Below, piece after piece: positions 30,911 to 53,608 of a stretch of DNA of 64,000 bases. The position numbers and the translations under genes were made by a program. Within the stretch, counting starts at the first letter, position 1, and the number at the start of each line of letters is the position of its first letter. Where the stretch lies: NCBI GenBank assembly GCA_964651655.1, contig CAZYVS010000001.1, positions 77,173 to 141,172 of the forward strand, written 5' to 3'. Under the pieces are notes generated by a model. The model was not told where the DNA came from. It worked only from the letters and a program-made list of their open reading frames with translations, and searched no databases. Origin of the DNA: an uncultured Candidatus Saccharibacteria bacterium. Lineage in GTDB: Bacteria > Patescibacteriota > Minisyncoccia > Phycocordibacterales > Zambryskibacteraceae.

Positions 30911-30965
30911 CCATTACTAATATATGCAACTTTGGGGATTTAATCAATCAAAAATCGATCGTTAG

Positions 30966-31038
30966 TGCGCGGTGCAAGACTTGAACTTGCAACATCCACA
31001 ACGTCAATGTGGCGCTCTACCAATTGAGCTAACCGCGC
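30966..31038 (-). tRNA. tRNA-Val (anticodon GAC)
   Basis: Hand-folded cloverleaf: acceptor GCGCGGT/ACCGCGC, anticodon loop TTGACGT, T-loop TTCAAGT. CCA is not encoded. Confidence 0.8.
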
Positions 31039-31069
31039 AAACAACAATACTCTATCTCAAAAAATACTT

Positions 31070-31159
31070 TGGCGGAAGAGGTGGGATTTGGACCCACGAT
31101 AGGCTTACGCCTATGCCGGTTTTCGAAACCGGTGCCTTCAACCACTCAGCCACTCTTCC
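31070..31159 (-). tRNA. tRNA-Ser (anticodon CGA), long variable arm, CCA encoded
   Basis: Hand-fold: acceptor GGAAGAG, anticodon stem-loop CCGGT-TTCGAAA-ACCGG, long variable arm, T-arm GTGGG-TCCAAAT-CCCAC, 3' GCCA. Confidence 0.8.
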
Positions 31160-31277
31160 TTTGGCTTGCCATAGCTTAAGCGAAGGCAGCCAGAATCTAC
31201 ACTATAACATTTTTTGTCTTTTCGGTAAAAAATGTTATTATTTTTGAGCCCAAGGTTTACCCTGAGCGTAGTCGAAG

Positions 31278-31349
31278 GGCCCTATCGTCTATCGGTTAGG
31301 ACACAAGCTTTTCAAGCTTGGAAGCCGGGTTCGACTCCCGGTAGGGTCA
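31278..31349 (+). tRNA. tRNA-Glu (anticodon TTC)
   Basis: Hand-fold: acceptor GGCCCTA/TAGGGTC (one G-U pair), anticodon loop TTTTCAA, T-arm CCGGG-TTCGACT-CCCGG. Confidence 0.8.
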
Positions 31350-31520: not shown

Positions 31521-31534
31521 TCCCGGTAGGGTCA
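31521..31534 (+). repeat. exact 14-nt duplicate of the tRNA-Glu 3' end (TCCCGGTAGGGTCA), att-like direct repeat
   Basis: Same 14-mer as 31336-31349, about 185 nt downstream of the tRNA. Confidence 0.6.
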
Positions 31535-31826
31535 AAAATCGTAGCGAAGCCAGGACGACAACTGCTTGTCGTCCGGGCGATTTTTGAAGACGGAAGTATG
31601 TCCCGCAAGCTTGCGAGACAACTGAGTCCGGGGCTGGAAAATTTGATTTCGACGGAAATCAAATTATTGTGGCTCATACTAAATTTGCATGCGAAGTATA
31701 CAATGCTTTTCCTTTCTTTGCCCGTCCGTAGCCTGGGCGAAGGAGGGGGCGGAAACGGGGCGAGGGCTGTTTACAGCATATAACAACTTGGAATATAACA
31801 CAACGGAATACTATTATATAAACACT

Positions 31827-32048
31827 ATGACAAAAGCGATATTTTCAAAAGACCACAAATATACAGTCGGGCAACTCAAAAAAGCTCGTCTTGAAGCGGG
31901 TTTAGATCAAGCCGAAGTGGCGAAACTACTCGGCAGAACTCAACCTCATGTCTCAAAAATTGAGGCGGGACAAAGACGACTTGATATTACGCAACTTAAG
32001 GAATTTGCGAAGATCTATAAAAAATCATTAGAATATTTTATTAAATAA
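31827..32048 (+). CDS. HTH_XRE family regulator, R-M controller (C-protein)-like
   Basis: 73 aa; TVGQLKKARLEAGLDQAEVAKLLGRTQPHVSKIEAGQR (XRE HTH). The stop lies 1 nt before the next ORF. The track ORF starting at 31689 reads through the promoter. Confidence 0.6.
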   Translation: MTKAIFSKDHKYTVGQLKKARLEAGLDQAEVAKLLGRTQPHVSKIEAGQRRLDITQLKEFAKIYKKSLEYFIK

Positions 32049-32049
32049 T

Positions 32050-32652
32050 ATGACAGAAGTTCAAAATCATGGATTTGTTTTTGAAAATTGGATTAAAAGT
32101 ATTCTTGGTGTAAAAGAGCTTGCTTATAATTATACTCAAAAATGGGACATACCAGGTGAAACGCCAATAAGTGTTAAATGCATGGGACTTACAAATGCCC
32201 TTGAATTTGGAAGCACTGTAAGAATTTGGGAAATAAACGAAACTTTTACTCTCGTCGTCGGAAGGTGGGAACAGGTTGGATTTAAAAAATTAATTAGAAG
32301 TATAGATGAAATAGATATTACTCCAAAAATTTTAATAAAAATGAGAGGCAGTATTACTCTTGAAGAATTAAAAGATTTTGATAAAAAAATAAAATCTTTT
32401 CCCGCGGGAAAAGAAGGACAAAGGAAGGGAATTGAATTCGCTAAAAAATGGAAAGCTGAAAGAAAAAATAGACTGGGATTACTAACTATTACACACAAAA
32501 TAGATAGCAAAGATCAACGCCGGATTCAATGCAACTTAAATTACAAAAACTATATTAAATTATTCGGTCAACCATCTGAAAGAGTTGAGTTCCGTGGTAA
32601 TATTTTTAATCAAGACATAGATCATGGACCAAGAAAGTTTAATAGTGAATAA
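32050..32652 (+). CDS. hypothetical protein (candidate restriction endonuclease component)
   Basis: No recognisable motifs. AT-rich. Immediately downstream of the C-like regulator and convergent with two MTase genes. Confidence 0.3.
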   Translation: MTEVQNHGFVFENWIKSILGVKELAYNYTQKWDIPGETPISVKCMGLTNALEFGSTVRIWEINETFTLVVGRWEQVGFKKLIRSIDEIDITPKILIKMRGSITLEELKDFDKKIKSFPAGKEGQRKGIEFAKKWKAERKNRLGLLTITHKIDSKDQRRIQCNLNYKNYIKLFGQPSERVEFRGNIFNQDIDHGPRKFNSE

Positions 32653-32653
32653 A

Positions 32654-33283
32654 ATGGCAACAGTTTATATAAACAATGGAATAATTGAATTGAGGCTAAC
32701 GTCAGCTCGTAGTAGGGTGAGAATTTGTGATATCAATGGCAATCATATTTCTAAACCATCTTCACAAAATATTAATTTTGATAACCACTATGTTGAATGG
32801 ATGATTACAAATAATGAGTTAATAAAAATAATAAGTCAGCAACTCACAAGAGAAGAGATAATCAATCTAAAAAATGAACTACGAGAAACAGCTATTTCCT
32901 TGAAAGATTCTAATTTTTACAGCAGGAAAGCTGAAAAAGAAGACATTGACCAAACTTTTGGAAATTTTTTAGTGTATAAATATGAAGAAATTTTTTATTC
33001 CTTTGAAAAAAATATTGATGTAAATTTACAGGTGAAAATTACATTTAAAATGGGTGATTATATCTTAGCAGCGCACATGTTTGTATTGATTGGTCTTACT
33101 AATCCAAACATAATACTAAACAATCGTGATAATAGTATTGCAAACAATAATGCTCTAGGACCAGGAGCAAAATGTGTTTGGAGTCCATCAAATCAGACAA
33201 TTAGCGAAATTGCTAAAGCACTAGCTTGTTCTTCTGAAGGTCATAAAAATGATCTGATTAACCTATTAGACAATATTACTTAA
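32654..33283 (+). CDS. hypothetical protein (candidate restriction endonuclease component)
   Basis: No recognisable motifs. Start taken at the internal Met (MATVYINNG) just after the upstream stop. Confidence 0.3.
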   Translation: MATVYINNGIIELRLTSARSRVRICDINGNHISKPSSQNINFDNHYVEWMITNNELIKIISQQLTREEIINLKNELRETAISLKDSNFYSRKAEKEDIDQTFGNFLVYKYEEIFYSFEKNIDVNLQVKITFKMGDYILAAHMFVLIGLTNPNIILNNRDNSIANNNALGPGAKCVWSPSNQTISEIAKALACSSEGHKNDLINLLDNIT

Positions 33284-34410
33284 ATACTAACTTTAAAATC
33301 ATAAATATTTTCTTTCTTAATGGATTTACTGCCTATACGACAGGTAATATTTCTAAAGTAATCTATTTTTGAATTTATATTTTGGCAAATTTTCTCTTTA
33401 ATTTCTTTGTTTTCATTGTATTCATCTTTAAAATCAAATATGAAGAACATATCATTGAGAATATCTTTTTTAATATTGATTAAACCACATTTTCCAACAC
33501 TAGAATTACCAACCCTGACAACAGCCATTTTATAATCAACAACATTACCACCTTTTGGAATGATGTTTTTTTCTAATATGTTCTTTGCCGATATATTATT
33601 ATCTTGAAATGATTTTTGTGCCTTAATGTTATTGGAACTAAAATAATCCCTTAATGGTGTCCCTTTTTCATTATTAATGAGACCATGATTTTTATTAAAA
33701 ATCACTTGGGGAATAAGCTCTTCATTTATGTTTGAAATATTAAAAATATCTTCATTTTTTTTACCATTTTCGTATATAACAATGATCTTATCTTTAAATT
33801 CAGTTGTGTTAGTAAATAAAGCAAAACAACAAGGTATATTTCGGTCAAACCACACTTTATCATTTTGATATATCACTATTGTTGAAAATATTTCTCGGAG
33901 CTTGTTTTTAACAAATATATTTCTGTTTTTTATAAAAAATGATATTGGTAGAACAAATCCAATAGAAGAATTATCATCTTTAAGTTGTTTAAGTGATTTT
34001 AAAATAAAAGCATTTTCTATCTTCTGCTTATCGTTTTTAATATCAGAAAAATCTAAATACAGTTCTGGTTTAATTTTTGATTGTTTATATTTTGAAGCAT
34101 AGTAATAACTATCCTTCAAGTTGTATTTTGTAAAAGGAGGATTACCAACAATAAGATCAAATTTTTCTTCTAGAGATGTTTGAAAAAAATCTGCTGGATT
34201 TGATGTTAATTCACTATCTATCTCATATCCTGTTACATTTTTATACCCCTTATTAGATAATTCACTTATAAAATTACCTGTTCCAAAAGATGGCTCAAGA
34301 ATAGATACGCCTTTTGAGTATTTTTTATAGAAAAAAAGTAAATCAAGTAATTTTGATACTATTTTGGTTTTTGTAAAATATTGACCTAAAATTTCTTTTT
34401 TATTTTTCAT
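33280..34410 (-). CDS. N6-adenine DNA methyltransferase, gamma class (TaqI/Eco57I-like), with C-terminal TRD
   Basis: GQYFTKTKIV (motif X), ILEPSFGTGNF (motif I), VGNPPF (motif IV). Confidence 0.8.
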   Translation of the reverse strand: MKNKKEILGQYFTKTKIVSKLLDLLFFYKKYSKGVSILEPSFGTGNFISELSNKGYKNVTGYEIDSELTSNPADFFQTSLEEKFDLIVGNPPFTKYNLKDSYYYASKYKQSKIKPELYLDFSDIKNDKQKIENAFILKSLKQLKDDNSSIGFVLPISFFIKNRNIFVKNKLREIFSTIVIYQNDKVWFDRNIPCCFALFTNTTEFKDKIIVIYENGKKNEDIFNISNINEELIPQVIFNKNHGLINNEKGTPLRDYFSSNNIKAQKSFQDNNISAKNILEKNIIPKGGNVVDYKMAVVRVGNSSVGKCGLINIKKDILNDMFFIFDFKDEYNENKEIKEKICQNINSKIDYFRNITCRIGSKSIKKENIYDFKVSI

Positions 34411-34412
34411 GT

Positions 34413-35051
34413 TTAAAATTTTCTAACTCTCTCATTGGCTATTTTACTATAATTAGCGTCAATTTCAAAACCTATATAATTCCTTTTTATCTGTTTACAT
34501 GTCACAGCAACGCTACCACTTCCTATAAATGGATCTAAAACAACATCATTTTCCCTAGAGAACATAGCTAATATTTCTTTTATAAATGTTTTGGGCTTAG
34601 GTGTTGGGTGATTAATAAAGCCCTCGTCTGGTTCAACCATAGAACCCGGTGTATCCATAAATATATCCTTCCCCTTTTTAACGATTTTTGCATTACCCTT
34701 TTTAAATACTATGCAAGACATATATTTGGTAAATCCAATTGAAGAAGAAACCCTACCGTTTGGACAATGTAAAATAAAATTCCAATAATAAGTAAAAGGA
34801 TTATTTTTAAATACATCAGGTAAAAATTTAGTACTAAAAAATGTAATATAAAAAGAATCATCTTTTAGAACTCTATGGCTTTCAGGCAGAGAAGCATAAA
34901 ATAAACTTAAGTCGTGATCGTTTCTTATTCCAGTTTTATTTAATCCATAAGGAGGGTCTGTAAAAATAAGATCAACGGATTTATCAGGAATCATTCTAAA
35001 TCCATCAAAACAATCAACATTTTGGATTGTGTTTAGTAAATTATTATGCAT
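34413..35051 (-). CDS. DNA methyltransferase, beta class (N4-C/N6-A, N6_N4_Mtase family)
   Basis: DLIFTDPPYGL (motif IV) precedes LDPFIGSGSVAV (motif I), the beta-class order. Confidence 0.8.
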   Translation of the reverse strand: MHNNLLNTIQNVDCFDGFRMIPDKSVDLIFTDPPYGLNKTGIRNDHDLSLFYASLPESHRVLKDDSFYITFFSTKFLPDVFKNNPFTYYWNFILHCPNGRVSSSIGFTKYMSCIVFKKGNAKIVKKGKDIFMDTPGSMVEPDEGFINHPTPKPKTFIKEILAMFSRENDVVLDPFIGSGSVAVTCKQIKRNYIGFEIDANYSKIANERVRKF

Positions 35052-35066
35052 AAAATTTGATAGAGT

Positions 35067-35411
35067 TTAAAATAAATATTTACCCAATTGTTTTGATAAA
35101 TTTTTTGTAACATCTTTGTCAGTTTTCAGTCTAATACTATAATTTATATTAGGATAACTCATGTATTTTGCATCTCTGAAACCCAACCCTTTCGGCTTTT
35201 CTTTAAAAGCAAAACCAACATTAAGTTTGCAATCTGACACAAATTTCCCACGAAAATAAACTACAGTAACAATATCATCTTTTAACATATATCTAACATA
35301 AACAGTGCTAAGACGAAAATTTATTTTAGGGTTGAGAGACATAATAAATTTATGTAATTGATTAAAAATTACTAACTTATCACCCAATTTTTTTTCTAAT
35401 TCATTATCCAT
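35067..35411 (-). CDS. hypothetical protein (between the LexA-like gene and the MTase genes)
   Basis: 114 aa, no recognisable motif. Confidence 0.35.
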   Translation of the reverse strand: MDNELEKKLGDKLVIFNQLHKFIMSLNPKINFRLSTVYVRYMLKDDIVTVVYFRGKFVSDCKLNVGFAFKEKPKGLGFRDAKYMSYPNINYSIRLKTDKDVTKNLSKQLGKYLF

Positions 35412-35434
35412 AATTTATTTATTATATCAAATAA

Positions 35435-36097
35435 TTAAATAGGTTCGTAACGATATTCATTTTCTTGAGGCTGTTTAATAACCTCGACAACTTTTCCGTT
35501 CACTAAATACTCGTCGAGATCATCCTCATGGATATGAATTGGCGGAAAAAATTGACTTGATTCTGACTGTAAAACAATCTGTTTATGAGCCTTATCTTCT
35601 AAAAAACGTTTAATATTGGCAAGTCCACCAATAACAGAAAGAACATAATCTCCAGTTTTTACGTTTTTATCCTCTCCGTCCACTATTACATAATCACCAT
35701 CATCAATAGATTTTCCGTTGACGCTCGCCCTGTTCATTGATAACCCAACAGCTTTTACAGCAAAAAGATTATCAAGATGACTAGTTGGAAGTAATTTTTT
35801 AGAAATGGGCAAAGTTCCCTCTATTCGAGCTTCTGCAAGCATAGTTGCGTCACCACAATTTGCTAAACCTAGAATAGGTATGGAGAGAAGACTTTTTGCT
35901 TTAGTGGTTAGTGGAGATTTGATAGAAATTGCCCTTTTTTTCTTTCCATTATCAAGAAGCCCTAATTTTTCCATATGAAATTTAACTTTTTGTGGATGCT
36001 CTATTCCAATGAGTCTACCTATCTGTCTCAGACCTATTTTCTTTAAATCATAACGTTGTGATAATTCTAAAAGTTTTTGTTGGGTTGGATGCATCAT
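35435..36097 (-). CDS. LexA-like repressor (N-terminal wHTH + S24 peptidase)
   Basis: N-terminal LexA-type DNA-binding region and C-terminal S24 with AVGLSMNRA (Ser nucleophile) and a downstream Lys. The start codon sits right after a -10 box, so the mRNA is leaderless. Confidence 0.75.
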   Translation of the reverse strand: MMHPTQQKLLELSQRYDLKKIGLRQIGRLIGIEHPQKVKFHMEKLGLLDNGKKKRAISIKSPLTTKAKSLLSIPILGLANCGDATMLAEARIEGTLPISKKLLPTSHLDNLFAVKAVGLSMNRASVNGKSIDDGDYVIVDGEDKNVKTGDYVLSVIGGLANIKRFLEDKAHKQIVLQSESSQFFPPIHIHEDDLDEYLVNGKVVEVIKQPQENEYRYEPI

Positions 36098-36120
36098 ACG
36101 TCAATTATAGCTGATAGGGG

Positions 36121-36143
36121 TGTCAACCGTCAACTGTTGACAA
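36121..36143. promoter_or_regulatory. putative operator: palindrome GTCAAC-T-GTTGAC within TGTCAACCGTCAACTGTTGACAA, overlapping the -35 of the lexA-like promoter
   Basis: On the gene strand the region reads TTGACG-N18-TATAAT-N7-ATG. The palindrome overlaps the -35 box. Confidence 0.45.
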
Positions 36144-36266
36144 CTTATTGAACAAAACTTGATTTTAGACTTGCATTATGGAAAAGAGCGGCGTAAAATA
36201 TAGCTGTTACGGTAGTTTCTAGAGACTACGGATTCGACGGAACAATTATTAACCAGTGACAAGACC

Positions 36267-36572
36267 ATGGCTCAGAACAAACAAGACATTATAGCTGACA
36301 TCAAGGCTTATATCGCAAAATTTTCAGGCACCAAATACAGTGATTGGTATGTCGGTATTGCTTCCGACCCAAAACAACGGCTGTTTGTTGACCATAGTGT
36401 TAACGAACAGAGCGGAGCATGGATTTATTGCGAGGCACTATCATCTGACGCGGCACGGGAAGTGGAACAATATTTCATTGACCAGCTAAAGACTGATGGT
36501 GGCCCAGGTGGAGGTGATCGCACTACGCGATTTGTCTACGCCTACCGCAAGACTTCTAGCACAGTAGAGTAA
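36267..36572 (+). CDS. small GIY-YIG nuclease-family protein (YhbQ/Cho-like stand-alone domain)
   Basis: …GTKYSDWYVGIASDPKQRLFVDH… compared with the GIY-YIG consensus (…YVGsAkd..kRl..H), plus the conserved acidic region WIYCEALSSDAAREVEQ. Divergent from the LexA-like gene. Confidence 0.45.
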   Translation: MAQNKQDIIADIKAYIAKFSGTKYSDWYVGIASDPKQRLFVDHSVNEQSGAWIYCEALSSDAAREVEQYFIDQLKTDGGPGGGDRTTRFVYAYRKTSSTVE

Positions 36573-40772: not shown

Positions 40773-41327
40773 TTACGGTACAAGACCATGCACGTTCATT
40801 GTGCAGTAGAACTTCCATTCGTCTCCGAATAACCAGAGACGAGGTTCACCGCCAGATTTAATCGGGGAGAAGACACTGTCTGGCCAAATCGTCTCTACGA
40901 TCCACTCGCGTGGATCGTCTGGCAACGGTATACTACCGACACCATCAGTGATACGCAGAAAGCCAAGGTGCCGCACAACATGGGTCGTTTCTGGGTCAAG
41001 GTAGTAAACCCGCAAAACCATATTCACACGGGCTCTGTCCTTGACATCATTCCGTAAAATAAACCCTAATGTGCGAGATACAGCATCTCCCTTATAGCCA
41101 GCGGGGTCAGTTCCGCTACGGGTATTACGTTCCTTAGCGATTTGCATTAATTCCAAGGCTTTTTCCTGTATAGCATAGGGAAGAAGATGATACGACCATG
41201 CATGCGCTACCAGTTTCCATTCAGAACATCGGGGGCCGAGAACCTTTTGTTGCAGTTGCAGTGGTGGCGTCACCGTACTACAACTACTTACAATAACCCC
41301 CACGAAAAGAGCTATGATTATCCTCAT
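40773..41327 (-). CDS. hypothetical lipoprotein
   Basis: MRIIIALFVGVIVSSC lipobox-like signal. GC-richer than its surroundings. Confidence 0.4.
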   Translation of the reverse strand: MRIIIALFVGVIVSSCSTVTPPLQLQQKVLGPRCSEWKLVAHAWSYHLLPYAIQEKALELMQIAKERNTRSGTDPAGYKGDAVSRTLGFILRNDVKDRARVNMVLRVYYLDPETTHVVRHLGFLRITDGVGSIPLPDDPREWIVETIWPDSVFSPIKSGGEPRLWLFGDEWKFYCTMNVHGLVP

Positions 41328-41645
41328 ATAGCACCTCTTTCTTTCGTTTAGCTTCAGAAACACAATCTGTGATACAGACTACGCATTTATGAAAAAAAAA
41401 TCAATAATTTAATGAAACATCATATTGTAGAAAAATGGCTTATTTACTATGTTTTATCACTATTTGTCTTTTATACTAAAAACGTCTTATATTAGGACAA
41501 ATTATTTTAAAATAAAACCAATACATAAGCGACATAATTAAAGTTATCAGTCACTATCTTAAATATTCAAATAGTTAATGTAAATTTTGTCCTTTTGATA
41601 CGCTAAATACCATATTCCCATAACATGTTATTATTAATAAAACAC

Positions 41646-43790
41646 ATGAACGAGAAATTTCTTCAGCCCTATAATCCACGAGCCACAGAAGATAAAATCT
41701 ATCAGCTTTGGGAAAAGAGCGGTTTTTTAAATCCGGATAATTTGCCCAAAAGACACCAGAAACCTTTTTCAATTGTCTTACCTCCGCCAAATGCCACTGG
41801 AATGCTGCATGTCGGCGGAGCTCTCATGGTAGTGATAGAAGATATTATTGTTCGCTATAAACGCATGAGAGGATTTAAAACTCTCTGGTTACCAGGCACC
41901 GATCACGCCGCCATAGCCACAAACACAAAAGTGGAGAAAATTCTTTTCAAAGAAGAGAAAAAAACCAGATATGATATCGGCAGAGAAGCTTTCATAACAA
42001 AGGCGGAGAAATTCGTGATTGAGAACAGGGGAACTCTGAAACATCAAATTAGCAAAATGGGAGCTTCTCTGGACTGGGACAGAGAAGCTTTTACTCTGGA
42101 TCAAAAAAGAAGTCTGGCTGTGAAAACCGCTTTCAAAATGATGTATGACGCCGATCTGATTTATCGCGATACACGGATAATTAATTGGGACCCAAAAGGA
42201 CAAACCACAATTTCAGACGATGAAATTGTTTACGAAGAAAGACCGGCAAAACTTTTCACTTTCAAATATTCAAAAGACTTTCCCATTGCTATTTCCACTA
42301 CTCGCCCCGAAACAAAACTGGGCGATACGGCCGTGGCCGTCCATCCGAACGATGAAAGATACGAAAAATACATCGGTCAGATACATAAAGTTGAATTCGC
42401 CGGAGCAAATCTCGAGATTAAAATAGTAGCCGATGAAATTGTTGATATGAAATTTGGCACCGGAGCATTGGGTGTCACTCCTGCTCATAGTCAAATGGAC
42501 GCGGAAATAGCCATACGTCATAACCTACCATCAGTTCAAGTTATAAATGAATACGCAAAAATAAAATTACCAATTCCCGGATTAGAGGGAGAAAAAACTA
42601 CCGCAGCACGGGAAAAAATAGTAAGATGGTTGAGAGAAAAAAACTTATTAATCAAAGAGGAAGAAATTATTCAAAATATTTCTACGGCAGAACGCACCGG
42701 TGGCATCATTGAACCGCTTCCCAAATTGCAATGGTTCATAAATGTAAACAAACCTATTAAAAATCGAGAGGGGAAATCGCTTAAACAATTGATGCATGAG
42801 GCCGTGGCAAACGGACACATCAAAATACTGCCGGAAAGGTTCAAGAAAGAATATTTTAATTGGATAAATAATCTTCATGACTGGAACATTTCGCGTCAGA
42901 TATGGTACGGTCATCGCATTCCGGTATGGTACAGGGATAACGAAATATATGTTGGTATCAATAAACCAAAGGACCCAAACTGGGAACAGGATCCCGACAC
43001 GCTGGATACATGGTTTTCGTCGGGTCTTTGGACATTTTCTGCATTGGGTTGGCCGGAGAAAACAAAAGATCTTGAGACTTATCACCCCATAGATATCCTT
43101 GAAACCGGCTATGACATCCTCTTTTTCTGGGTGGCGCGCATGATCTTGATGTCAGAATTTTTGCTCGGGGAAATTCCCTTCAAGACCGTATATCTGCATG
43201 GATTGGTAAGAAATGAAAAAGGAAAAAAACTAAGCAAATCATTGGGAGATAATATCGACCCTCTCTCCATTACTGACAAATATGGAACCGATGCGCTTAG
43301 AATGGCGCTCATAGCAGGTGTCGGCCCCGGCTCTGACAGCAGACTTTCGCATGATAAACTCAAGGCCTATAAAAACTTTGCCAATAAACTGTGGAATATC
43401 GCGCGTTTCATACTCTCTCAAGAAAATACATTGAGCGACAAAGACAAACTTGACGATGAATTGGTGAATGAATTTAACACGCTGGCAGCAGATATCACCA
43501 ATGATATGGAAAATTATCGATTCTATATTGCCGCTGAAAAAATCTACGCTTACGTTTGGCACCGTTTCGCCGATGAAATTATTGAGAAGAGTAAAAAATT
43601 TCCAGAATTCCACACAACTCTGTATTATATTTTAGAAAACTCACTCAAACTTCTCCACCCGTTTATGCCTTTCATCACCGAAGAAATTTGGTCCGAATTA
43701 AAAGCTAGCACCAAGCCCCTAGAACCTAGAAGCTTGTTAATGATAGAACCTTGGTTTACCCCGAGCAATGTCGAGGGACCATCTATATGA
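41646..43790 (+). CDS. valS: valyl-tRNA synthetase, short form lacking the C-terminal coiled-coil; HIGH motif reads HVGG
   Basis: PPPNATGMLHVGGAL, TLWLPGTDHAAIAT, DTWFSSGLWTFSALGWPE, TGYDILFFWVARMI, KLSKSLGDNIDP (KMSKS). The track start at 41625 adds 7 aa; the Met at 41646 is likelier. Confidence 0.85.
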   Translation: MNEKFLQPYNPRATEDKIYQLWEKSGFLNPDNLPKRHQKPFSIVLPPPNATGMLHVGGALMVVIEDIIVRYKRMRGFKTLWLPGTDHAAIATNTKVEKILFKEEKKTRYDIGREAFITKAEKFVIENRGTLKHQISKMGASLDWDREAFTLDQKRSLAVKTAFKMMYDADLIYRDTRIINWDPKGQTTISDDEIVYEERPAKLFTFKYSKDFPIAISTTRPETKLGDTAVAVHPNDERYEKYIGQIHKVEFAGANLEIKIVADEIVDMKFGTGALGVTPAHSQMDAEIAIRHNLPSVQVINEYAKIKLPIPGLEGEKTTAAREKIVRWLREKNLLIKEEEIIQNISTAERTGGIIEPLPKLQWFINVNKPIKNREGKSLKQLMHEAVANGHIKILPERFKKEYFNWINNLHDWNISRQIWYGHRIPVWYRDNEIYVGINKPKDPNWEQDPDTLDTWFSSGLWTFSALGWPEKTKDLETYHPIDILETGYDILFFWVARMILMSEFLLGEIPFKTVYLHGLVRNEKGKKLSKSLGDNIDPLSITDKYGTDALRMALIAGVGPGSDSRLSHDKLKAYKNFANKLWNIARFILSQENTLSDKDKLDDELVNEFNTLAADITNDMENYRFYIAAEKIYAYVWHRFADEIIEKSKKFPEFHTTLYYILENSLKLLHPFMPFITEEIWSELKASTKPLEPRSLLMIEPWFTPSNVEGPSI

Positions 43791-53195: not shown

Positions 53196-53253
53196 GGCAG
53201 ATACTTTTAAATCAACCCTTGTTAATATTTATATATTAACATATAATGAAGAA

Positions 53254-53572
53254 GGTGTCGGATAGTTGCCCCGATATTATGTCGGGGAGGAAAGTCCGAA
53301 CATTCGTTGTGAGATGTCGCACATGTGCAATTTCACAAAAGGGTAGCAGGTAACACCTGTCGGGAGTAATCCTAGAGATGCGAACAGTGACGAAGCCGGC
53401 TTGCCTCGCCTTGGCGGGGTGAATCCGGAGTGAAACGGCAAAATTCTTACCTGAATGCAAGGCCGTGTCCCGATTCACCATGTGTGAATCGTGGAAGTGC
53501 CGCTATAGGTTCTAAGCGATTAGAATCACAGATAAATAACTATCGACAACAGAATTCGGCTTATAGACACCC
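53254..53572 (+). ncRNA. rnpB: RNase P RNA (bacterial type, compact)
   Basis: GAGGAAAGTCCGAAC (P4 5' strand), GGGTAGCAGGTAACACCTG, GAGTGAAACGGC, ACAGAATTCGGCTTA (P4 3' strand). P1 pairing GGTGTC/GACACC. Own promoter TTGTTA-N17-TATAAT at ~53217-53246. Ends are approximate (+/-5 nt). Confidence 0.8.
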
Positions 53573-53573
53573 A

Positions 53574-53608
53574 ACCCCGCCCCGACATATGTCGGGGCGG
53601 GGTTGTTT
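53574..53608 (+). terminator. intrinsic terminator (CCCCGCCCCGACAT/ATGTCGGGGCGGGG + TTGTTTTT) of rnpB
   Basis: Perfect palindrome followed by a T-run, read directly. Confidence 0.7.

What the first reader, a model, noticed from the sequence alone, without database searches (positions are those of the whole stretch)
31827..35051. AT-rich island: C-protein-like regulator + two unrecognisable ORFs convergent with a gamma-class and a beta-class DNA methyltransferase (putative Type IIS-like R-M, or a novel defence module)
Composition is visibly more AT-rich than the flanks. A 73-aa XRE HTH gene ends 1 nt before ORF 32050, the classic controller-protein layout. Tandem direct repeats ATATAACAAC / ATATAACACAAC (31778-31804) lie within a TTTACA-N17-ATATAA promoter, as candidate C-boxes. 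Two MTases of different classes (NPPF gamma at 33280-34410, DPPY-then-FxGxG beta at 34413-35051) are typical of asymmetric-site Type IIS systems. The 200-aa and ~210-aa ORFs have no recognisable nuclease motif. They could be a novel or split REase, or something else entirely.
Basis: partly seen in the sequence, partly recalled or inferred. Interest (0 to 1): 0.6.

Follow-up and report, generated by a model that had tools for sequence, protein, structure and literature searches.

The report
Restriction island with base-excision enzyme
This AT-rich island in a Candidatus Zambryskibacteria genome is a mobile restriction-modification cassette whose two "unrecognisable" genes are a remote, unannotated relative of the PabI base-excising restriction enzyme and a second restriction-nuclease-like protein, both sharing two adenine methyltransferases.

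Summary

ORF 32654-33283 is a remote member of the PabI/HALFPIPE restriction DNA glycosylase family. Its family profile matches R.PabI over the full length (E 1.8e-5). Its AlphaFold model (pLDDT 92.8) matches only R.PabI and R.CcoLI (Foldseek E 5.6e-12). PabI residues R32, E63, H211 and D214 are conserved, but catalytic Y68 is replaced by an invariant Asn.

ORF 32050-32652 matches a PADLOC Type II restriction-enzyme model (E 1.8e-12). Its relatives sit beside, or are fused to, gamma-class NPPF methyltransferases.

Across about 60 related loci from Patescibacteria and DPANN archaea, the gamma and beta methyltransferases travel with ORF2 alone, ORF3 alone, or both. The two ORFs are therefore interchangeable restriction modules, not a split enzyme and not Type IIS.

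The HTH gene has a conserved upstream operator, which supports a controller-protein role.

Two further island genes head the methyltransferase operon: a 114-aa unknown and a LexA-like self-cleaving repressor with its own conserved palindromic operator.

The recognition sequence, possibly GTAC, is unresolved.

Verdict: a new variant of a known kind.

The parts
31750..36250 (.). Whole AT-rich mobile island (approximate limits), inserted downstream of a tRNA-Val/Ser/Glu cluster.
   Evidence: GC profile. tRNAs at 30965-31349. Sequence shared with locus L023 extends from upstream of the HTH gene to about 36,250, past the LexA-like gene. A 10-bp direct repeat, TTCGACGGAA, lies at 31651-31660 and 36233-36242 (read).
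31780..31811 (+). Candidate C-box operator ATAACAACTTGGAATATAACACAACGGAATAC. It overlaps the promoter-like hexamers upstream of the HTH gene.
Evidence: Alignment A3 of 12 upstream regions: invariant TTGG..TAT and G..T columns; family consensus ATAACCTATTTTGGGTTAT-N5-CAATAGGTTAT, 15-35 nt before the ATG. Promoter-like TTGGAA-18-TATTAT at 31788-31817.
31827..32048 (+). Controller-type HTH_3 (XRE) regulator, 73 aa.
   Evidence: Pfam HTH_3 E 1.3e-13. Weak PADLOC Control_protein hits, E 0.005-0.014. It sits first in the R operon in 15 or more loci, including ORF2-only and ORF3-only variants.
32050..32652 (+). ORF2, 200 aa: putative Type II restriction endonuclease of a structurally uncharacterised family. 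Conserved D33...S41-x-K43 and K150-x-D-S-K-x-Q-R-R-x-Q-C.
   Evidence: PADLOC REase_II PDLC03460 E 1.8e-12. phrog_6892 E 1.5e-22. AlphaFold pLDDT 87.6. BFVD hit A7RBT9, 298 aa, E 7.2e-10, TM 0.79. 774 representative relatives. Conserved residues from alignment A4. Fusions to gamma NPPF methyltransferases in P0218 and P0224. Adjacent small gamma methyltransferases in viral contigs.
32654..33283 (+). ORF3, 209 aa (alternative ATG at 32624 gives 219 aa): remote PabI/HALFPIPE-family restriction DNA glycosylase.
   Evidence: phmmer against R.PabI, E 0.009-0.014, full length. Family profile against R.PabI, E 1.8e-5. PADLOC PDLC03538 E 4.3e-4; that model is R.PabI itself. AlphaFold pLDDT 92.8. Foldseek finds only R.PabI (E 5.6e-12, TM 0.69-0.71) and R.CcoLI (E 2.5e-8); the next hit has E 0.27. 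Conserved R23, E48, I51, H197 and D200 correspond to PabI R32, E63, I66, H211 and D214.
33280..34410 (-). Gamma-class N6-adenine DNA methyltransferase (NPPF), 376 aa, convergent with ORF3 and overlapping it by 4 bp.
   Evidence: Pfam N6_Mtase E 6.6e-6. PADLOC MTase_II E 5.3e-23. M.TaqI E 9e-5. Its homolog in L001 hits Pfam Eco57I and N6_Mtase. 23% identity to M.PabI over the catalytic domain only. Homologs at 52-92% identity are present in most related loci.
34413..35051 (-). Beta-class DNA methyltransferase (DPPY then FIGSG, probably N6-adenine), 212 aa.
   Evidence: Pfam N6_N4_Mtase E 6e-28. PDB matches: M.MboIIA, CcrM and a chain deposited as DpnA, E 1e-14 to 1e-17. Homologs at 53-93% identity in related loci.
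35067..35411 (-). p114: 114-aa protein of unknown function, between the LexA-like gene and the methyltransferases.
   Evidence: No significant family hit. Homologs at 63-82% identity occupy the same position in L021, L022 and L023.
35435..36097 (-). LexA-like self-cleaving repressor (N-terminal DNA-binding region plus S24 peptidase), first gene of the minus-strand methyltransferase operon.
   Evidence: Peptidase_S24 E 1.9e-14. TIGR00498 lexA E 1.8e-19, below the curated cut-off. Alignment to the LexA part of the L004 fusion retains a Cys-Gly at the cleavage site, Ser in GLSM and Lys in IKRF. The gene's GC is island-like, about 0.30-0.36. A 78%-identical homolog holds the same position in L023.
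36104..36141 (-). Strong promoter-like site TTGACG-18-TATAAT, overlapped by the perfect palindrome GTCAACTGTTGAC (36129-36141): candidate operator of the LexA-like repressor.
   Evidence: Promoter scan, 11 of 12 matches. Palindrome located. The same palindrome and flanking sequence occur upstream of the L023 homolog.

Best explanation
The island is a horizontally mobile Type II restriction-modification cassette with two restriction effectors of different chemistry, two adenine methyltransferases and two regulators.

Minus-strand operon. A LexA-like repressor, a 114-aa unknown protein, the beta methyltransferase and the gamma methyltransferase are transcribed together. The two methyltransferases methylate adenines in the target site or sites.

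Plus-strand operon. A controller HTH protein binds a conserved operator over its own promoter. Inferred from what is known of C proteins, this delays and limits expression of the two downstream restriction genes.

ORF3 is a PabI-family HALFPIPE enzyme. Inferred from the family, a dimer flips out the unmethylated adenine of its site and cuts the N-glycosidic bond, leaving abasic sites. ORF3 lacks the beta-sheet insertion and lysine that give the mesophilic enzymes CcoLI and HpyAXII their AP-lyase activity. It is therefore probably a monofunctional glycosylase, and strand breaks would come from other activities.

ORF2 is a separate restriction endonuclease, probably metal-dependent, from an unstudied family that normally partners gamma-class NPPF methyltransferases.

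Either R gene can be present alone with the same methyltransferases, and a gamma methyltransferase alone accompanies either one. I therefore infer that both R enzymes are held in check by the same methylation, most simply at the same site. GTAC is the leading candidate but is unproven.

The LexA-like repressor probably autoregulates the methyltransferase operon through the palindrome at 36129-36141. It could de-repress methylation after DNA damage. That last step is speculative.
For: ORF3 belongs to the PabI family:
- Sequence matches; PDLC03538 is R.PabI itself.
- Exclusive fold match on a model with pLDDT 92.8.
- R32, E63, H211 and D214 equivalents are conserved. Their roles come from PMC10273834 and PMC7806768.
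- A canonical Pfam RE_R_Pab1 gene lies in tandem with ORF3 homologs in L052 and L054.
- ORF3 is tail-to-tail with a gamma methyltransferase, the layout of archaeal PabI systems (PMC4615327; P. abyssi locus L100).

ORF2 is a restriction enzyme:
- PADLOC REase_II E 1.8e-12.
- Fusions to gamma NPPF methyltransferases in both orders.
- Viral homologs are followed directly by a small gamma methyltransferase.
- ORF2 stands alone with the gamma and beta methyltransferases in 6 non-redundant loci.

Modularity: architectures are tabulated.
- ORF3 with the gamma methyltransferase only: L004 and L057. ORF2 with the gamma methyltransferase only: L020.
- In the loci inspected gene by gene, the beta methyltransferase is never the sole methyltransferase in a locus with complete flanks. 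L036, L046 and L061 carry a different gamma methyltransferase.

Controller: conserved operator.

LexA-like regulator.

GTAC: it is the most under-represented 4-bp palindrome in 60 cassettes (O/E 0.43) and in the gamma methyltransferase genes (0.23).
Against: - No biochemical or methylome data exist; the recognition site or sites are unknown.
- PabI catalytic Tyr68 is not conserved (invariant Asn53 instead), so the chemistry could differ or activity could be altered.
- Several PabI base-recognition positions differ (Q65 to M, Q161 to H, M163 to F, Y165 to L, by sequence alignment only). GTAC specificity is therefore not assured.
- ORF3 misses Pfam PF09522.
- ORF2's fold class is unresolved: there are only weak local Foldseek hits to HincII (probability 0.44 or less) and no PDB sequence hit.
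- Why two methyltransferases are retained so consistently for a presumably palindromic site is unexplained.
- GATC is depleted about as much as GTAC, and the cassettes are phylogenetically related, so the k-mer statistics are weak.
- The loci were retrieved using the R genes as queries, so R-less methyltransferase pairs could not be counted.
Confidence: 0.72

Rival explanations
1. Two independent R-M systems with different specificities have become fused or nested. One is ORF3 with the gamma methyltransferase (PabI-like, tail-to-tail). The other is ORF2 with the beta methyltransferase. Loci lacking one R gene simply retain an orphan methyltransferase.
For: The archaeal layout (beta methyltransferase, ORF2, ORF3, then the convergent gamma methyltransferase) parses neatly into an M-R pair plus an R-M pair (L008-L012, L015, L051). 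PabI-family enzymes are known to pair with gamma methyltransferases (PMC4615327). ORF3 with the gamma methyltransferase alone exists (L004, L057). Both GATC and GTAC are depleted in the cassettes.
Against: ORF2 occurs with the gamma methyltransferase and no beta methyltransferase (L020, 4.8 kb of flank), and never with the beta methyltransferase alone. ORF2's relatives pair with, or are fused to, gamma-type rather than beta-type methyltransferases. Both methyltransferases remain intact in all 11 ORF3-only and all 6 ORF2-only cassettes that have both flanks, which is unexpected for orphans.
Confidence: 0.25
2. ORF2 and ORF3 are subunits of a single heteromeric or split restriction enzyme, for example one of Type IIS/IIT style acting on an asymmetric site with one methyltransferase per strand.
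For: The two genes are adjacent and probably translationally coupled: stop at 32652 and ATG at 32654. There are two methyltransferases of different classes. The genes are co-conserved in 15 or more loci.
Against: Each gene occurs without the other next to the same methyltransferases in many loci, with no remnant of the missing gene. The gene order is reversed in L048. ORF3's family acts as a homodimer on a palindrome (PMC7806768). ORF2 relatives are stand-alone partners of single methyltransferases in viruses.
Confidence: 0.05
3. ORF2 is not a sequence-specific restriction enzyme. It is an accessory nuclease that converts the abasic sites made by the lyase-deficient ORF3 glycosylase into strand breaks.
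For: ORF3 lacks the insertion and lysine responsible for AP-lyase activity in the mesophilic enzyme R.CcoLI (alignment; PMC7806768). ORF2 is co-transcribed directly upstream of ORF3.
Against: ORF2 occurs with the methyltransferases and no glycosylase in 6 or more loci. It occurs with its own methyltransferase in viral contigs and fused to methyltransferases. It also matches a PADLOC Type II restriction-enzyme model.
Confidence: 0.08
4. ORF3 is a catalytically inactive HALFPIPE derivative, for example a DNA-binding or regulatory protein, because catalytic Tyr68 is missing.
For: PabI Tyr68 aligns with an invariant Asn or falls in a gap. There is no Pfam PF09522 hit.
Against: The His and Asp of the triad, and the essential Arg and Glu, are conserved across 46 sequences with only 38-89% identity. 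The gene is always next to methyltransferases. ORF3 is the only R candidate in 11 or more cassettes that keep a controller gene and two methyltransferases. An invariant Asn at the position suggests a functional replacement rather than decay.
Confidence: 0.08

Closest known systems
PabI family of restriction DNA glycosylases (HALFPIPE superfamily: R.PabI, R.HpyAXII, R.CcoLI)
   Same: ORF3 shows full-length homology and the same fold. R32, E63, I66, H211 and D214 equivalents are conserved. ORF3 is about 210 aa. It is convergent with a gamma-class adenine methyltransferase, as in archaeal PabI systems (PMC4615327). It sits in a low-GC mobile island, as described for P. abyssi (PMC10273834).
   Different: - Identity to PabI is only about 21%, and ORF3 is not detected by Pfam PF09522.
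- A PabI-seeded search does not retrieve it.
- Tyr68 is replaced by an invariant Asn.
- There is no insertion or lysine for AP-lyase activity.
- Several base-contact positions are changed.
- The partner gamma methyltransferase is not an M.PabI orthologue: 23% identity in the catalytic domain only, with a different target-recognition domain.
- The cassette adds a second (beta) methyltransferase, a C protein, a second R gene and a LexA-like regulator.
- The hosts are Patescibacteria and DPANN archaea, not Campylobacterales or hyperthermophiles.
C-protein-controlled Type II R-M systems (for example PvuII, AhdI, Esp1396I; named from general knowledge)
   Same: A small HTH gene sits immediately upstream of, and co-oriented with, the R gene(s). 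The methyltransferases are on a separate transcription unit. A conserved repeated operator overlaps the C-gene promoter.
   Different: The operator sequence (ATAACC...GGGTTAT...AGGTTAT) is not, from my memory, the classical GACT/AGTC C-box. Similarity to PADLOC Control_protein models is only marginal (E 0.005-0.014). One C protein controls two unrelated R genes.
Two-methyltransferase Type IIP systems such as DpnII, MboI and LlaDCHI (from general knowledge)
   Same: One restriction specificity is served by two adenine methyltransferases of different classes, one of them a small beta-class enzyme. The cassette's beta methyltransferase matches a PDB chain deposited as DpnA at E 1e-14.
   Different: Here the primary methyltransferase is gamma class rather than alpha class. 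That the two share a specificity is inferred, not shown. ORF2 and ORF3 have no DpnII-family signal in Pfam.
A7RBT9, a 298-aa viral protein, and PADLOC REase_II model PDLC03460 (probably a chlorovirus Type II restriction endonuclease; the chlorovirus origin is from memory of the accession series)
   Same: ORF2's model superposes at TM 0.79, E 7.2e-10, 25% identity. The HMM match has E 1.8e-12. The viral protein's length equals the model's length.
   Different: The viral protein has an extra N-terminal region of about 85 residues. Its name and specificity could not be retrieved with the tools available.

Membership tests
PabI / HALFPIPE restriction DNA glycosylases (ORF3) | HALFPIPE fold | tested here: met
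   AlphaFold model with pLDDT 92.8. Foldseek against the PDB gives 15 hits with E<=1e-3, all of them R.PabI or R.CcoLI (best 5.6e-12, TM 0.69-0.71). The next hit has E 0.27.
PabI / HALFPIPE restriction DNA glycosylases (ORF3) | Full-length sequence homology to R.PabI | tested here: met
   Family profile A1 against 3waz, 6l2n and 2dvy: E 1.8e-5 to 2.5e-5 over residues 5-207. PADLOC PDLC03538 (which is R.PabI): E 4.3e-4 over the full length.
PabI / HALFPIPE restriction DNA glycosylases (ORF3) | Match to Pfam RE_R_Pab1 (PF09522) at the gathering threshold | tested here: not met
   No Pfam hit at E<=0.1. None of the 71 homologs carries a precomputed PF09522 hit. By contrast, nearly all homologs retrieved with PabI as query carry it, and so do the tandem neighbours in L052 and L054.
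PabI / HALFPIPE restriction DNA glycosylases (ORF3) | Catalytic His211 and Asp214 | tested here: met
   H197 is invariant and D200 nearly invariant in the motif SS-E-x-H-K-N-D, aligned to PabI SETHKND. The roles of these residues come from PMC7806768.
PabI / HALFPIPE restriction DNA glycosylases (ORF3) | Catalytic Tyr68 | tested here: not met
   PabI EWQISY corresponds to EWMITN in ORF3. An invariant Asn53 aligns with Tyr68 or Tyr68 falls in a gap. This rests on sequence alignment only; no structural superposition of side chains was possible.
PabI / HALFPIPE restriction DNA glycosylases (ORF3) | Essential DNA-binding and cleavage residues Arg32 and Glu63 | tested here: met
   R23 and E48 are invariant across the ORF3 family, PabI and the canonical paralogs. 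Their roles come from PMC10273834, section 2.4.
PabI / HALFPIPE restriction DNA glycosylases (ORF3) | Adjacent adenine methyltransferase (gamma type) | tested here: met
   A convergent gamma NPPF methyltransferase overlaps ORF3 by 4 bp, the same layout as P. abyssi (PMC4615327). It is not an M.PabI orthologue.
PabI / HALFPIPE restriction DNA glycosylases (ORF3) | Methyl-sensitive adenine excision at GTAC | not testable with these tools
   Only indirect evidence: GTAC O/E is 0.43 in cassettes and 0.23 in gamma methyltransferase genes. Several base-contact residues differ.
PabI / HALFPIPE restriction DNA glycosylases (ORF3) | AP-lyase insertion with lysine (the mesophilic subgroup CcoLI/HpyAXII) | tested here: not met
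   There is no insertion after EWMITN; a helix starts at residue 53. The feature is described in PMC7806768.
Controller (C) protein-regulated R-M | Small HTH gene directly upstream of, and co-oriented with, the R gene | tested here: met
   The same position is held in ORF2-only, ORF3-only and dual cassettes.
Controller (C) protein-regulated R-M | Conserved repeated operator (C-box) at the C-gene promoter | tested here: met
   Alignment A3 of 12 loci shows invariant TTGG..TAT and G..T columns 15-35 nt upstream of the ATG. Binding was not tested.
Controller (C) protein-regulated R-M | Sequence membership in known C-protein families | tested here: inconclusive
   PADLOC Control_protein models match only at E 0.005-0.014. 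Generic HTH families score better.
   Both R candidates are 200-209 aa with single compact predicted folds. ORF3's family uses a homodimeric half-pipe on a palindrome (PMC7806768).
   Two methyltransferases are present. However, loci with a gamma methyltransferase alone exist for both R genes (L004, L057, L020). Specificities are unknown.
PD-(D/E)xK restriction endonucleases (ORF2) | PD-(D/E)xK core fold | tested here: inconclusive
PD-(D/E)xK restriction endonucleases (ORF2) | Catalytic D...(D/E)xK motif | tested here: inconclusive
   Across the superfamily, D33 and S41 are nearly invariant and K43 is invariant. This gives a D...SxK pattern resembling the Cfr10I-type variant (from memory). No structural confirmation was possible.
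Type II restriction enzymes as catalogued (ORF2) | Match to a PADLOC Type II REase model, and linkage to DNA methyltransferases | tested here: met
   PADLOC PDLC03460 E 1.8e-12. Methyltransferase adjacency or fusion in cellular and viral relatives.
LexA / S24 self-cleaving repressors (35435-36097) | S24 peptidase domain with a Ser-Lys dyad and a cleavage-site Gly | tested here: met
   Peptidase_S24 E 1.9e-14. Alignment to the LexA part of L004 keeps Cys-Gly at the Ala-Gly position, Ser in GLSM and Lys in IKRF.
LexA / S24 self-cleaving repressors (35435-36097) | Equivalog-level match to LexA (TIGR00498) | tested here: not met
   70.1 bits against a cut-off of 110.95. Pfam LexA_DNA_bind was not detected. 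The protein is therefore LexA-like, not demonstrably the host LexA.

The most novel reading that the evidence does not exclude
The cassette is a dual-chemistry restriction system. A monofunctional base-excision enzyme (a new Asn-for-Tyr clade of the HALFPIPE family) and an unrelated phosphodiesterase attack the same unmethylated site under one controller protein. The protective methyltransferase operon is wired to the SOS signal through a cassette-borne LexA-like repressor, which in one lineage is fused to the gamma methyltransferase. Self-inflicted damage would then raise methylation, giving a built-in brake on autoimmunity.
Probability: 0.2. Interest if true: 0.8.

Novelty: new variant of a known kind. 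Interest (0 to 1): 0.66.

Why it matters
A 2023 review describes base-excision restriction enzymes as confined to Helicobacteraceae/Campylobacteraceae and a few hyperthermophilic archaea (PMC10273834).

Here a remote clade appears in at least 71 protein clusters from Patescibacteria and DPANN archaea. All those that carry a name are annotated 'hypothetical', and Pfam does not detect any of them. The clade has an altered catalytic triad and no AP-lyase module.

- It extends the family to mesophilic, ultra-small, host-dependent microbes.
- It offers natural variants for dissecting the glycosylase mechanism (Asn in place of Tyr68).
- It shows that a glycosylase and a conventional-looking nuclease can be swapped or stacked on the same methyltransferase chassis.

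ORF2's family has 774 representative clusters, including cyanophage and probably chlorovirus members, and has neither a structure nor a Pfam model.

The recurrent link between a LexA-like repressor and the methyltransferase operon, including a LexA::methyltransferase fusion, suggests damage-responsive control of modification. I am not aware of a described precedent and did not search the literature for one.

Tried and rejected
- Pfam and NCBIfam gave nothing for ORF2 or ORF3.
- PDB sequence searches for ORF2 found nothing, whether with the single sequence, the 41-sequence profile or the 101-sequence superfamily profile.
- Foldseek against the PDB gave only sub-threshold HincII hits for ORF2.
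- Pfam scans of 10 longer ORF2-superfamily members found no informative domains, and cluster names were uninformative apart from one 'predicted RNA methylase'.
- I tried to name A7RBT9 and the 298-position REase model from the literature (CviQI and CviAI papers). None gave gene lengths or accessions, so I do not claim a specificity for ORF2.
- Site-avoidance statistics in the 64-kb window are not discriminating: GTAC O/E 0.70 and GATC 0.60. Pooled cassettes point to GTAC, but GATC is similar.
- I tested whether the gamma methyltransferase is an M.PabI orthologue. It is not: they share only the catalytic domain.
- Plasmid database: no ORF2 homolog. Viral contigs: no ORF3 homolog.
- The 14-bp repeat of the tRNA-Glu 3' end has no third copy at the far end of the island, so it does not delimit this island.

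Full report
OBSERVATION

The island is real. GC falls from about 0.45 to 0.25-0.31 between about 31,800 and 36,100.

- A 73-aa HTH_3 protein at 31827-32048 (Pfam E 1.3e-13). Its stop codon lies 1 nt before ORF2.
- ORF2 at 32050-32652.
- ORF3 at 32654-33283, with an alternative ATG at 32624.
- A convergent gamma-class NPPF methyltransferase at 33280-34410 (N6_Mtase; M.TaqI-like).
- A beta-class DPPY...FIGSG methyltransferase at 34413-35051 (N6_N4_Mtase E 6e-28; related to M.MboIIA, CcrM and a chain deposited as DpnA).

ORF2 and ORF3 have no Pfam or NCBIfam hit.

The source is a Candidatus Zambryskibacteria (Patescibacteria) genome assembled from a metagenome. There, ORF3 is the 'hypothetical protein' HYX23_00495.

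ORF3 IS A REMOTE PabI-FAMILY RESTRICTION DNA GLYCOSYLASE

Sequence evidence:
- PADLOC's REase_II model PDLC03538 matches ORF3 end to end (E 4.3e-4). That model is R.PabI itself: the P. abyssi protein scores E 5.8e-158 against it.
- phmmer against PDB sequences finds only R.PabI chains, over the full length (E 0.009-0.014).
- A profile of 46 family members improves this to E 1.8e-5.

Structural evidence:
- The AlphaFold model is confident (pLDDT 92.8).
- Foldseek against the PDB returns only R.PabI (E 5.6e-12, TM about 0.7) and R.CcoLI (E 2.5e-8). Nothing else scores below E 0.27.

Residue mapping, from alignments with PabI and with canonical PabI-like genes:
- Conserved: PabI R32 = R23, E63 = E48, I66 = I51, H211 = H197 (all invariant) and D214 = D200 (nearly invariant).
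- Not conserved: the third catalytic residue, Tyr68 (triad from PMC7806768). It is replaced by an invariant Asn53 (EWQISY becomes EWMITN).
- The family also lacks the beta-sheet insertion and Lys71 that give the mesophilic enzyme R.CcoLI its AP-lyase activity (PMC7806768).
- Several base-contact positions differ: Q65 to M, Q161 to H, M163 to F and Y165 to L.

How far the clade lies from the known family:
- A database search seeded with PabI finds 108 canonical homologs, nearly all carrying PF09522. None is an ORF3-family member.
- The ORF3 family comprises 71 clusters at 38-89% identity from Patescibacteria and Micrarchaeota. None has PF09522.
- ORF3 is therefore a distinct, unannotated clade.
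- A 2023 review places the family in Helicobacteraceae/Campylobacteraceae and a few hyperthermophilic archaea (PMC10273834).
- A full-text search for 'restriction glycosylase' together with 'Patescibacteria' found nothing.
- As independent support, in loci L052 and L054 a canonical RE_R_Pab1 gene (E about 1e-13) lies immediately upstream of an ORF3 homolog.

ORF2 IS A RESTRICTION-ENDONUCLEASE-LIKE PROTEIN OF AN UNSTUDIED FAMILY

Direct matches:
- It matches PADLOC REase_II PDLC03460 (E 1.8e-12, residues 4-164 against profile positions 87-255 of 298).
- It matches phrog_6892 over its full length (E 1.5e-22).
- The AlphaFold model (pLDDT 87.6) has no significant PDB neighbour, only weak local HincII matches.
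- It does match a 298-aa viral protein, A7RBT9, at E 7.2e-10 and TM 0.79. That protein has the same length as the PADLOC model. From memory of the accession series, it is a chlorovirus protein.

Superfamily features:
- There are 774 representative clusters.
- K43, K150, R157, R158 and Q160 are invariant. Q5, H7, G8, D33, S41, D152, S153, Q156 and C161 are nearly invariant.
- The D33...S41-x-K43 pattern resembles a PD-(D/E)xK variant. This remains unproven.

Context supports a restriction role:
- Relatives are fused to gamma NPPF methyltransferases in both orders (P0218 and P0224).
- Viral-contig homologs are followed directly by small gamma methyltransferases.
- T4-like cyanophages carry solitary homologs annotated 'hypothetical protein'.

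THE CASSETTE IS MODULAR

I fetched 76 cellular loci using ORF2 or ORF3 as queries and annotated them by BLASTP. The non-redundant architectures are:
- HTH, ORF2, ORF3, then convergent gamma and beta methyltransferases: the window plus 7 loci.
- Beta methyltransferase, ORF2, ORF3, then convergent gamma methyltransferase: 7 loci. Those with an organism label are named as archaeal genome bins.
- ORF2 with the gamma and beta methyltransferases and no ORF3: 6 loci.
- ORF3, with or without HTH, with the gamma and beta methyltransferases and no ORF2: 11 loci.
- ORF3 before ORF2: L048.
- ORF3 with the methyltransferase order reversed: L002.
- ORF3 with the gamma methyltransferase only: L004 and L057.
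- ORF2 with the gamma methyltransferase only: L020.
- ORF3 with the beta methyltransferase and a different gamma-type methyltransferase: L036, L046 and L061.

Three conclusions follow.
- Neither R gene needs the other, which rules out a split enzyme.
- Among the loci inspected gene by gene, a gamma methyltransferase is the constant partner of both R genes.
- The beta methyltransferase is never the sole methyltransferase in a locus with complete flanks.

The simplest reading is that both R proteins are restrained by the same methylation. The beta enzyme would then be a second methyltransferase, as in DpnII-type systems (general knowledge).

The alternative is two fused systems with different specificities. 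It remains possible, and I give it about 0.25.

The gamma methyltransferase is not an M.PabI orthologue. The two share 23% identity in the catalytic domain only, and M.PabI has a Type I S-like target-recognition domain. Specificity therefore cannot be transferred from M.PabI.

K-mer statistics are suggestive only:
- GTAC is the most under-represented 4-bp palindrome in 60 cassettes (70 observed against 163 expected, O/E 0.43).
- Its O/E is 0.23 in the gamma methyltransferase genes.
- Its O/E is 0.35-0.39 in ORF3-bearing cassettes against 0.92 in ORF2-only cassettes.
- GATC behaves similarly, and the cassettes are phylogenetically related to each other.

REGULATION

Upstream of the HTH gene, 12 cassettes share a conserved element, ATAACCTATTTTGGGTTAT-N5-CAATAGGTTAT. 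The window's version is at 31780-31811. The columns TTGG..TAT and G..T are invariant, and the element lies 15-35 nt before the ATG. This supports a controller-protein circuit, although similarity to catalogued C proteins is marginal.

On the other strand, tight spacing suggests an operon:
- LexA-like gene, 36097 to 35435.
- p114, 35411 to 35067.
- Beta methyltransferase, 35051 to 34413.
- Gamma methyltransferase, 34410 to 33280.

The LexA-like protein has an S24 domain (E 1.9e-14). It keeps a Cys-Gly cleavage site and the Ser/Lys dyad. Its GC content is island-like.

A perfect palindrome, GTCAACTGTTGAC (36129-36141), overlaps the -35 hexamer of a near-consensus promoter, TTGACG-18-TATAAT. The palindrome is conserved upstream of the 78%-identical homolog in L023.

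LexA-like genes also abut the cassette in other loci:
- L048, where the gene lies directly upstream of the beta methyltransferase.
- L029 and L031, where it lies 2.6 kb away.
- L004 and L005, where a complete LexA is fused in frame to the gamma methyltransferase. The junction reads ...QKDFSFENNKKEILGQYFTK.

I infer that the repressor belongs to the cassette and controls modification. A damage-responsive role is speculative.

VERDICT

This is a C-protein-controlled Type II R-M island. Its restriction genes are a new clade of the PabI/HALFPIPE base-excision family plus a second, independently sufficient restriction-nuclease-like gene. Both share a gamma and beta adenine methyltransferase pair, and a LexA-like regulator is attached.

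It is not Type IIS and not a split enzyme. The recognition sequence and the enzymatic activities remain to be shown experimentally.

Noticed in passing
window 31336-31349 and 31521-31534: The last 14 nt of tRNA-Glu (TCCCGGTAGGGTCA) are repeated exactly 185 bp downstream, in a GC-rich non-coding stretch of about 430 bp between the tRNA cluster and the island. It looks like an att-type scar from an earlier integration. There is no third copy in the window.
   Followed up: partly
window 31651-31660 and 36233-36242: A 10-bp direct repeat, TTCGACGGAA, brackets the AT-rich island. The left copy sits inside a small inverted repeat (AAATTTGATTTCGACGGAAATCAAATT). These may be the island's ends or a target duplication. 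Significance was not assessed statistically.
   Followed up: no
L004:1312-3036(-) and L005:3485-4981(-): A complete LexA (LexA_DNA_bind plus Peptidase_S24) is fused in frame to the gamma methyltransferase, giving 574 aa with no internal Met at the junction. The gene is convergent with an ORF3 homolog. The two assemblies may derive from the same sample.
   Followed up: partly
L052:1251-2168(+) and L054:2804-3679(+): Canonical PabI-family genes (Pfam RE_R_Pab1, E about 1e-13) carry an insertion of about 80 residues right after the Tyr68 position. Each lies in tandem immediately upstream of an ORF3-clade gene. This may be a heterodimer or two stacked glycosylases. The contigs end before any downstream methyltransferase.
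   Followed up: partly
L098 (Synechococcus phage S-SM1, 41593-42192) and 27 other cyanophage records: T4-like cyanomyoviruses carry solitary ORF2-superfamily genes (25-32% identity) annotated as hypothetical proteins, with no adjacent methyltransferase. Their function is unknown.
   Followed up: partly
window 35067-35411 (-): A 114-aa protein with no family assignment is conserved (63-82% identity) between the LexA-like gene or the contig edge and the beta methyltransferase in L021, L022 and L023. It is part of the closest cassette variants only.
   Followed up: partly
window 36267-36572 (+): A 101-aa ORF divergent from the LexA-like gene has a weak GIY-YIG hit (E 0.0044) and host-like GC. An 86-aa GIY-YIG gene also lies upstream of the ORF3 homolog in L004 and L005. 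This may be coincidence.
   Followed up: no
window 31757-31768; also L022 and, less exactly, L028 upstream regions: A G-rich element, GGGGCGAGGGCT, lies just upstream of the C-box region and is shared with L022 (L028 has a looser version). Its role is unknown.
   Followed up: no
whole window outside the island: GATC is the most under-represented tetranucleotide in the host sequence (143 observed against 239 expected, O/E 0.60). The same holds in the flanks of related loci (O/E 0.64). This suggests pressure from GATC-specific restriction in these lineages.
   Followed up: partly
window about 41,250-41,750: A second sharp AT-rich dip (GC about 0.31 against about 0.48 in the flanks) lies about 5 kb downstream of the island. 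It was not examined.
   Followed up: no
window 53250-53577 (+): Bacterial RNase P RNA (class A) scores 100.5 bits, just above the Rfam gathering threshold of 100. The match spans the full 367-position model in 328 nt, so the RNA is somewhat reduced.
   Followed up: no
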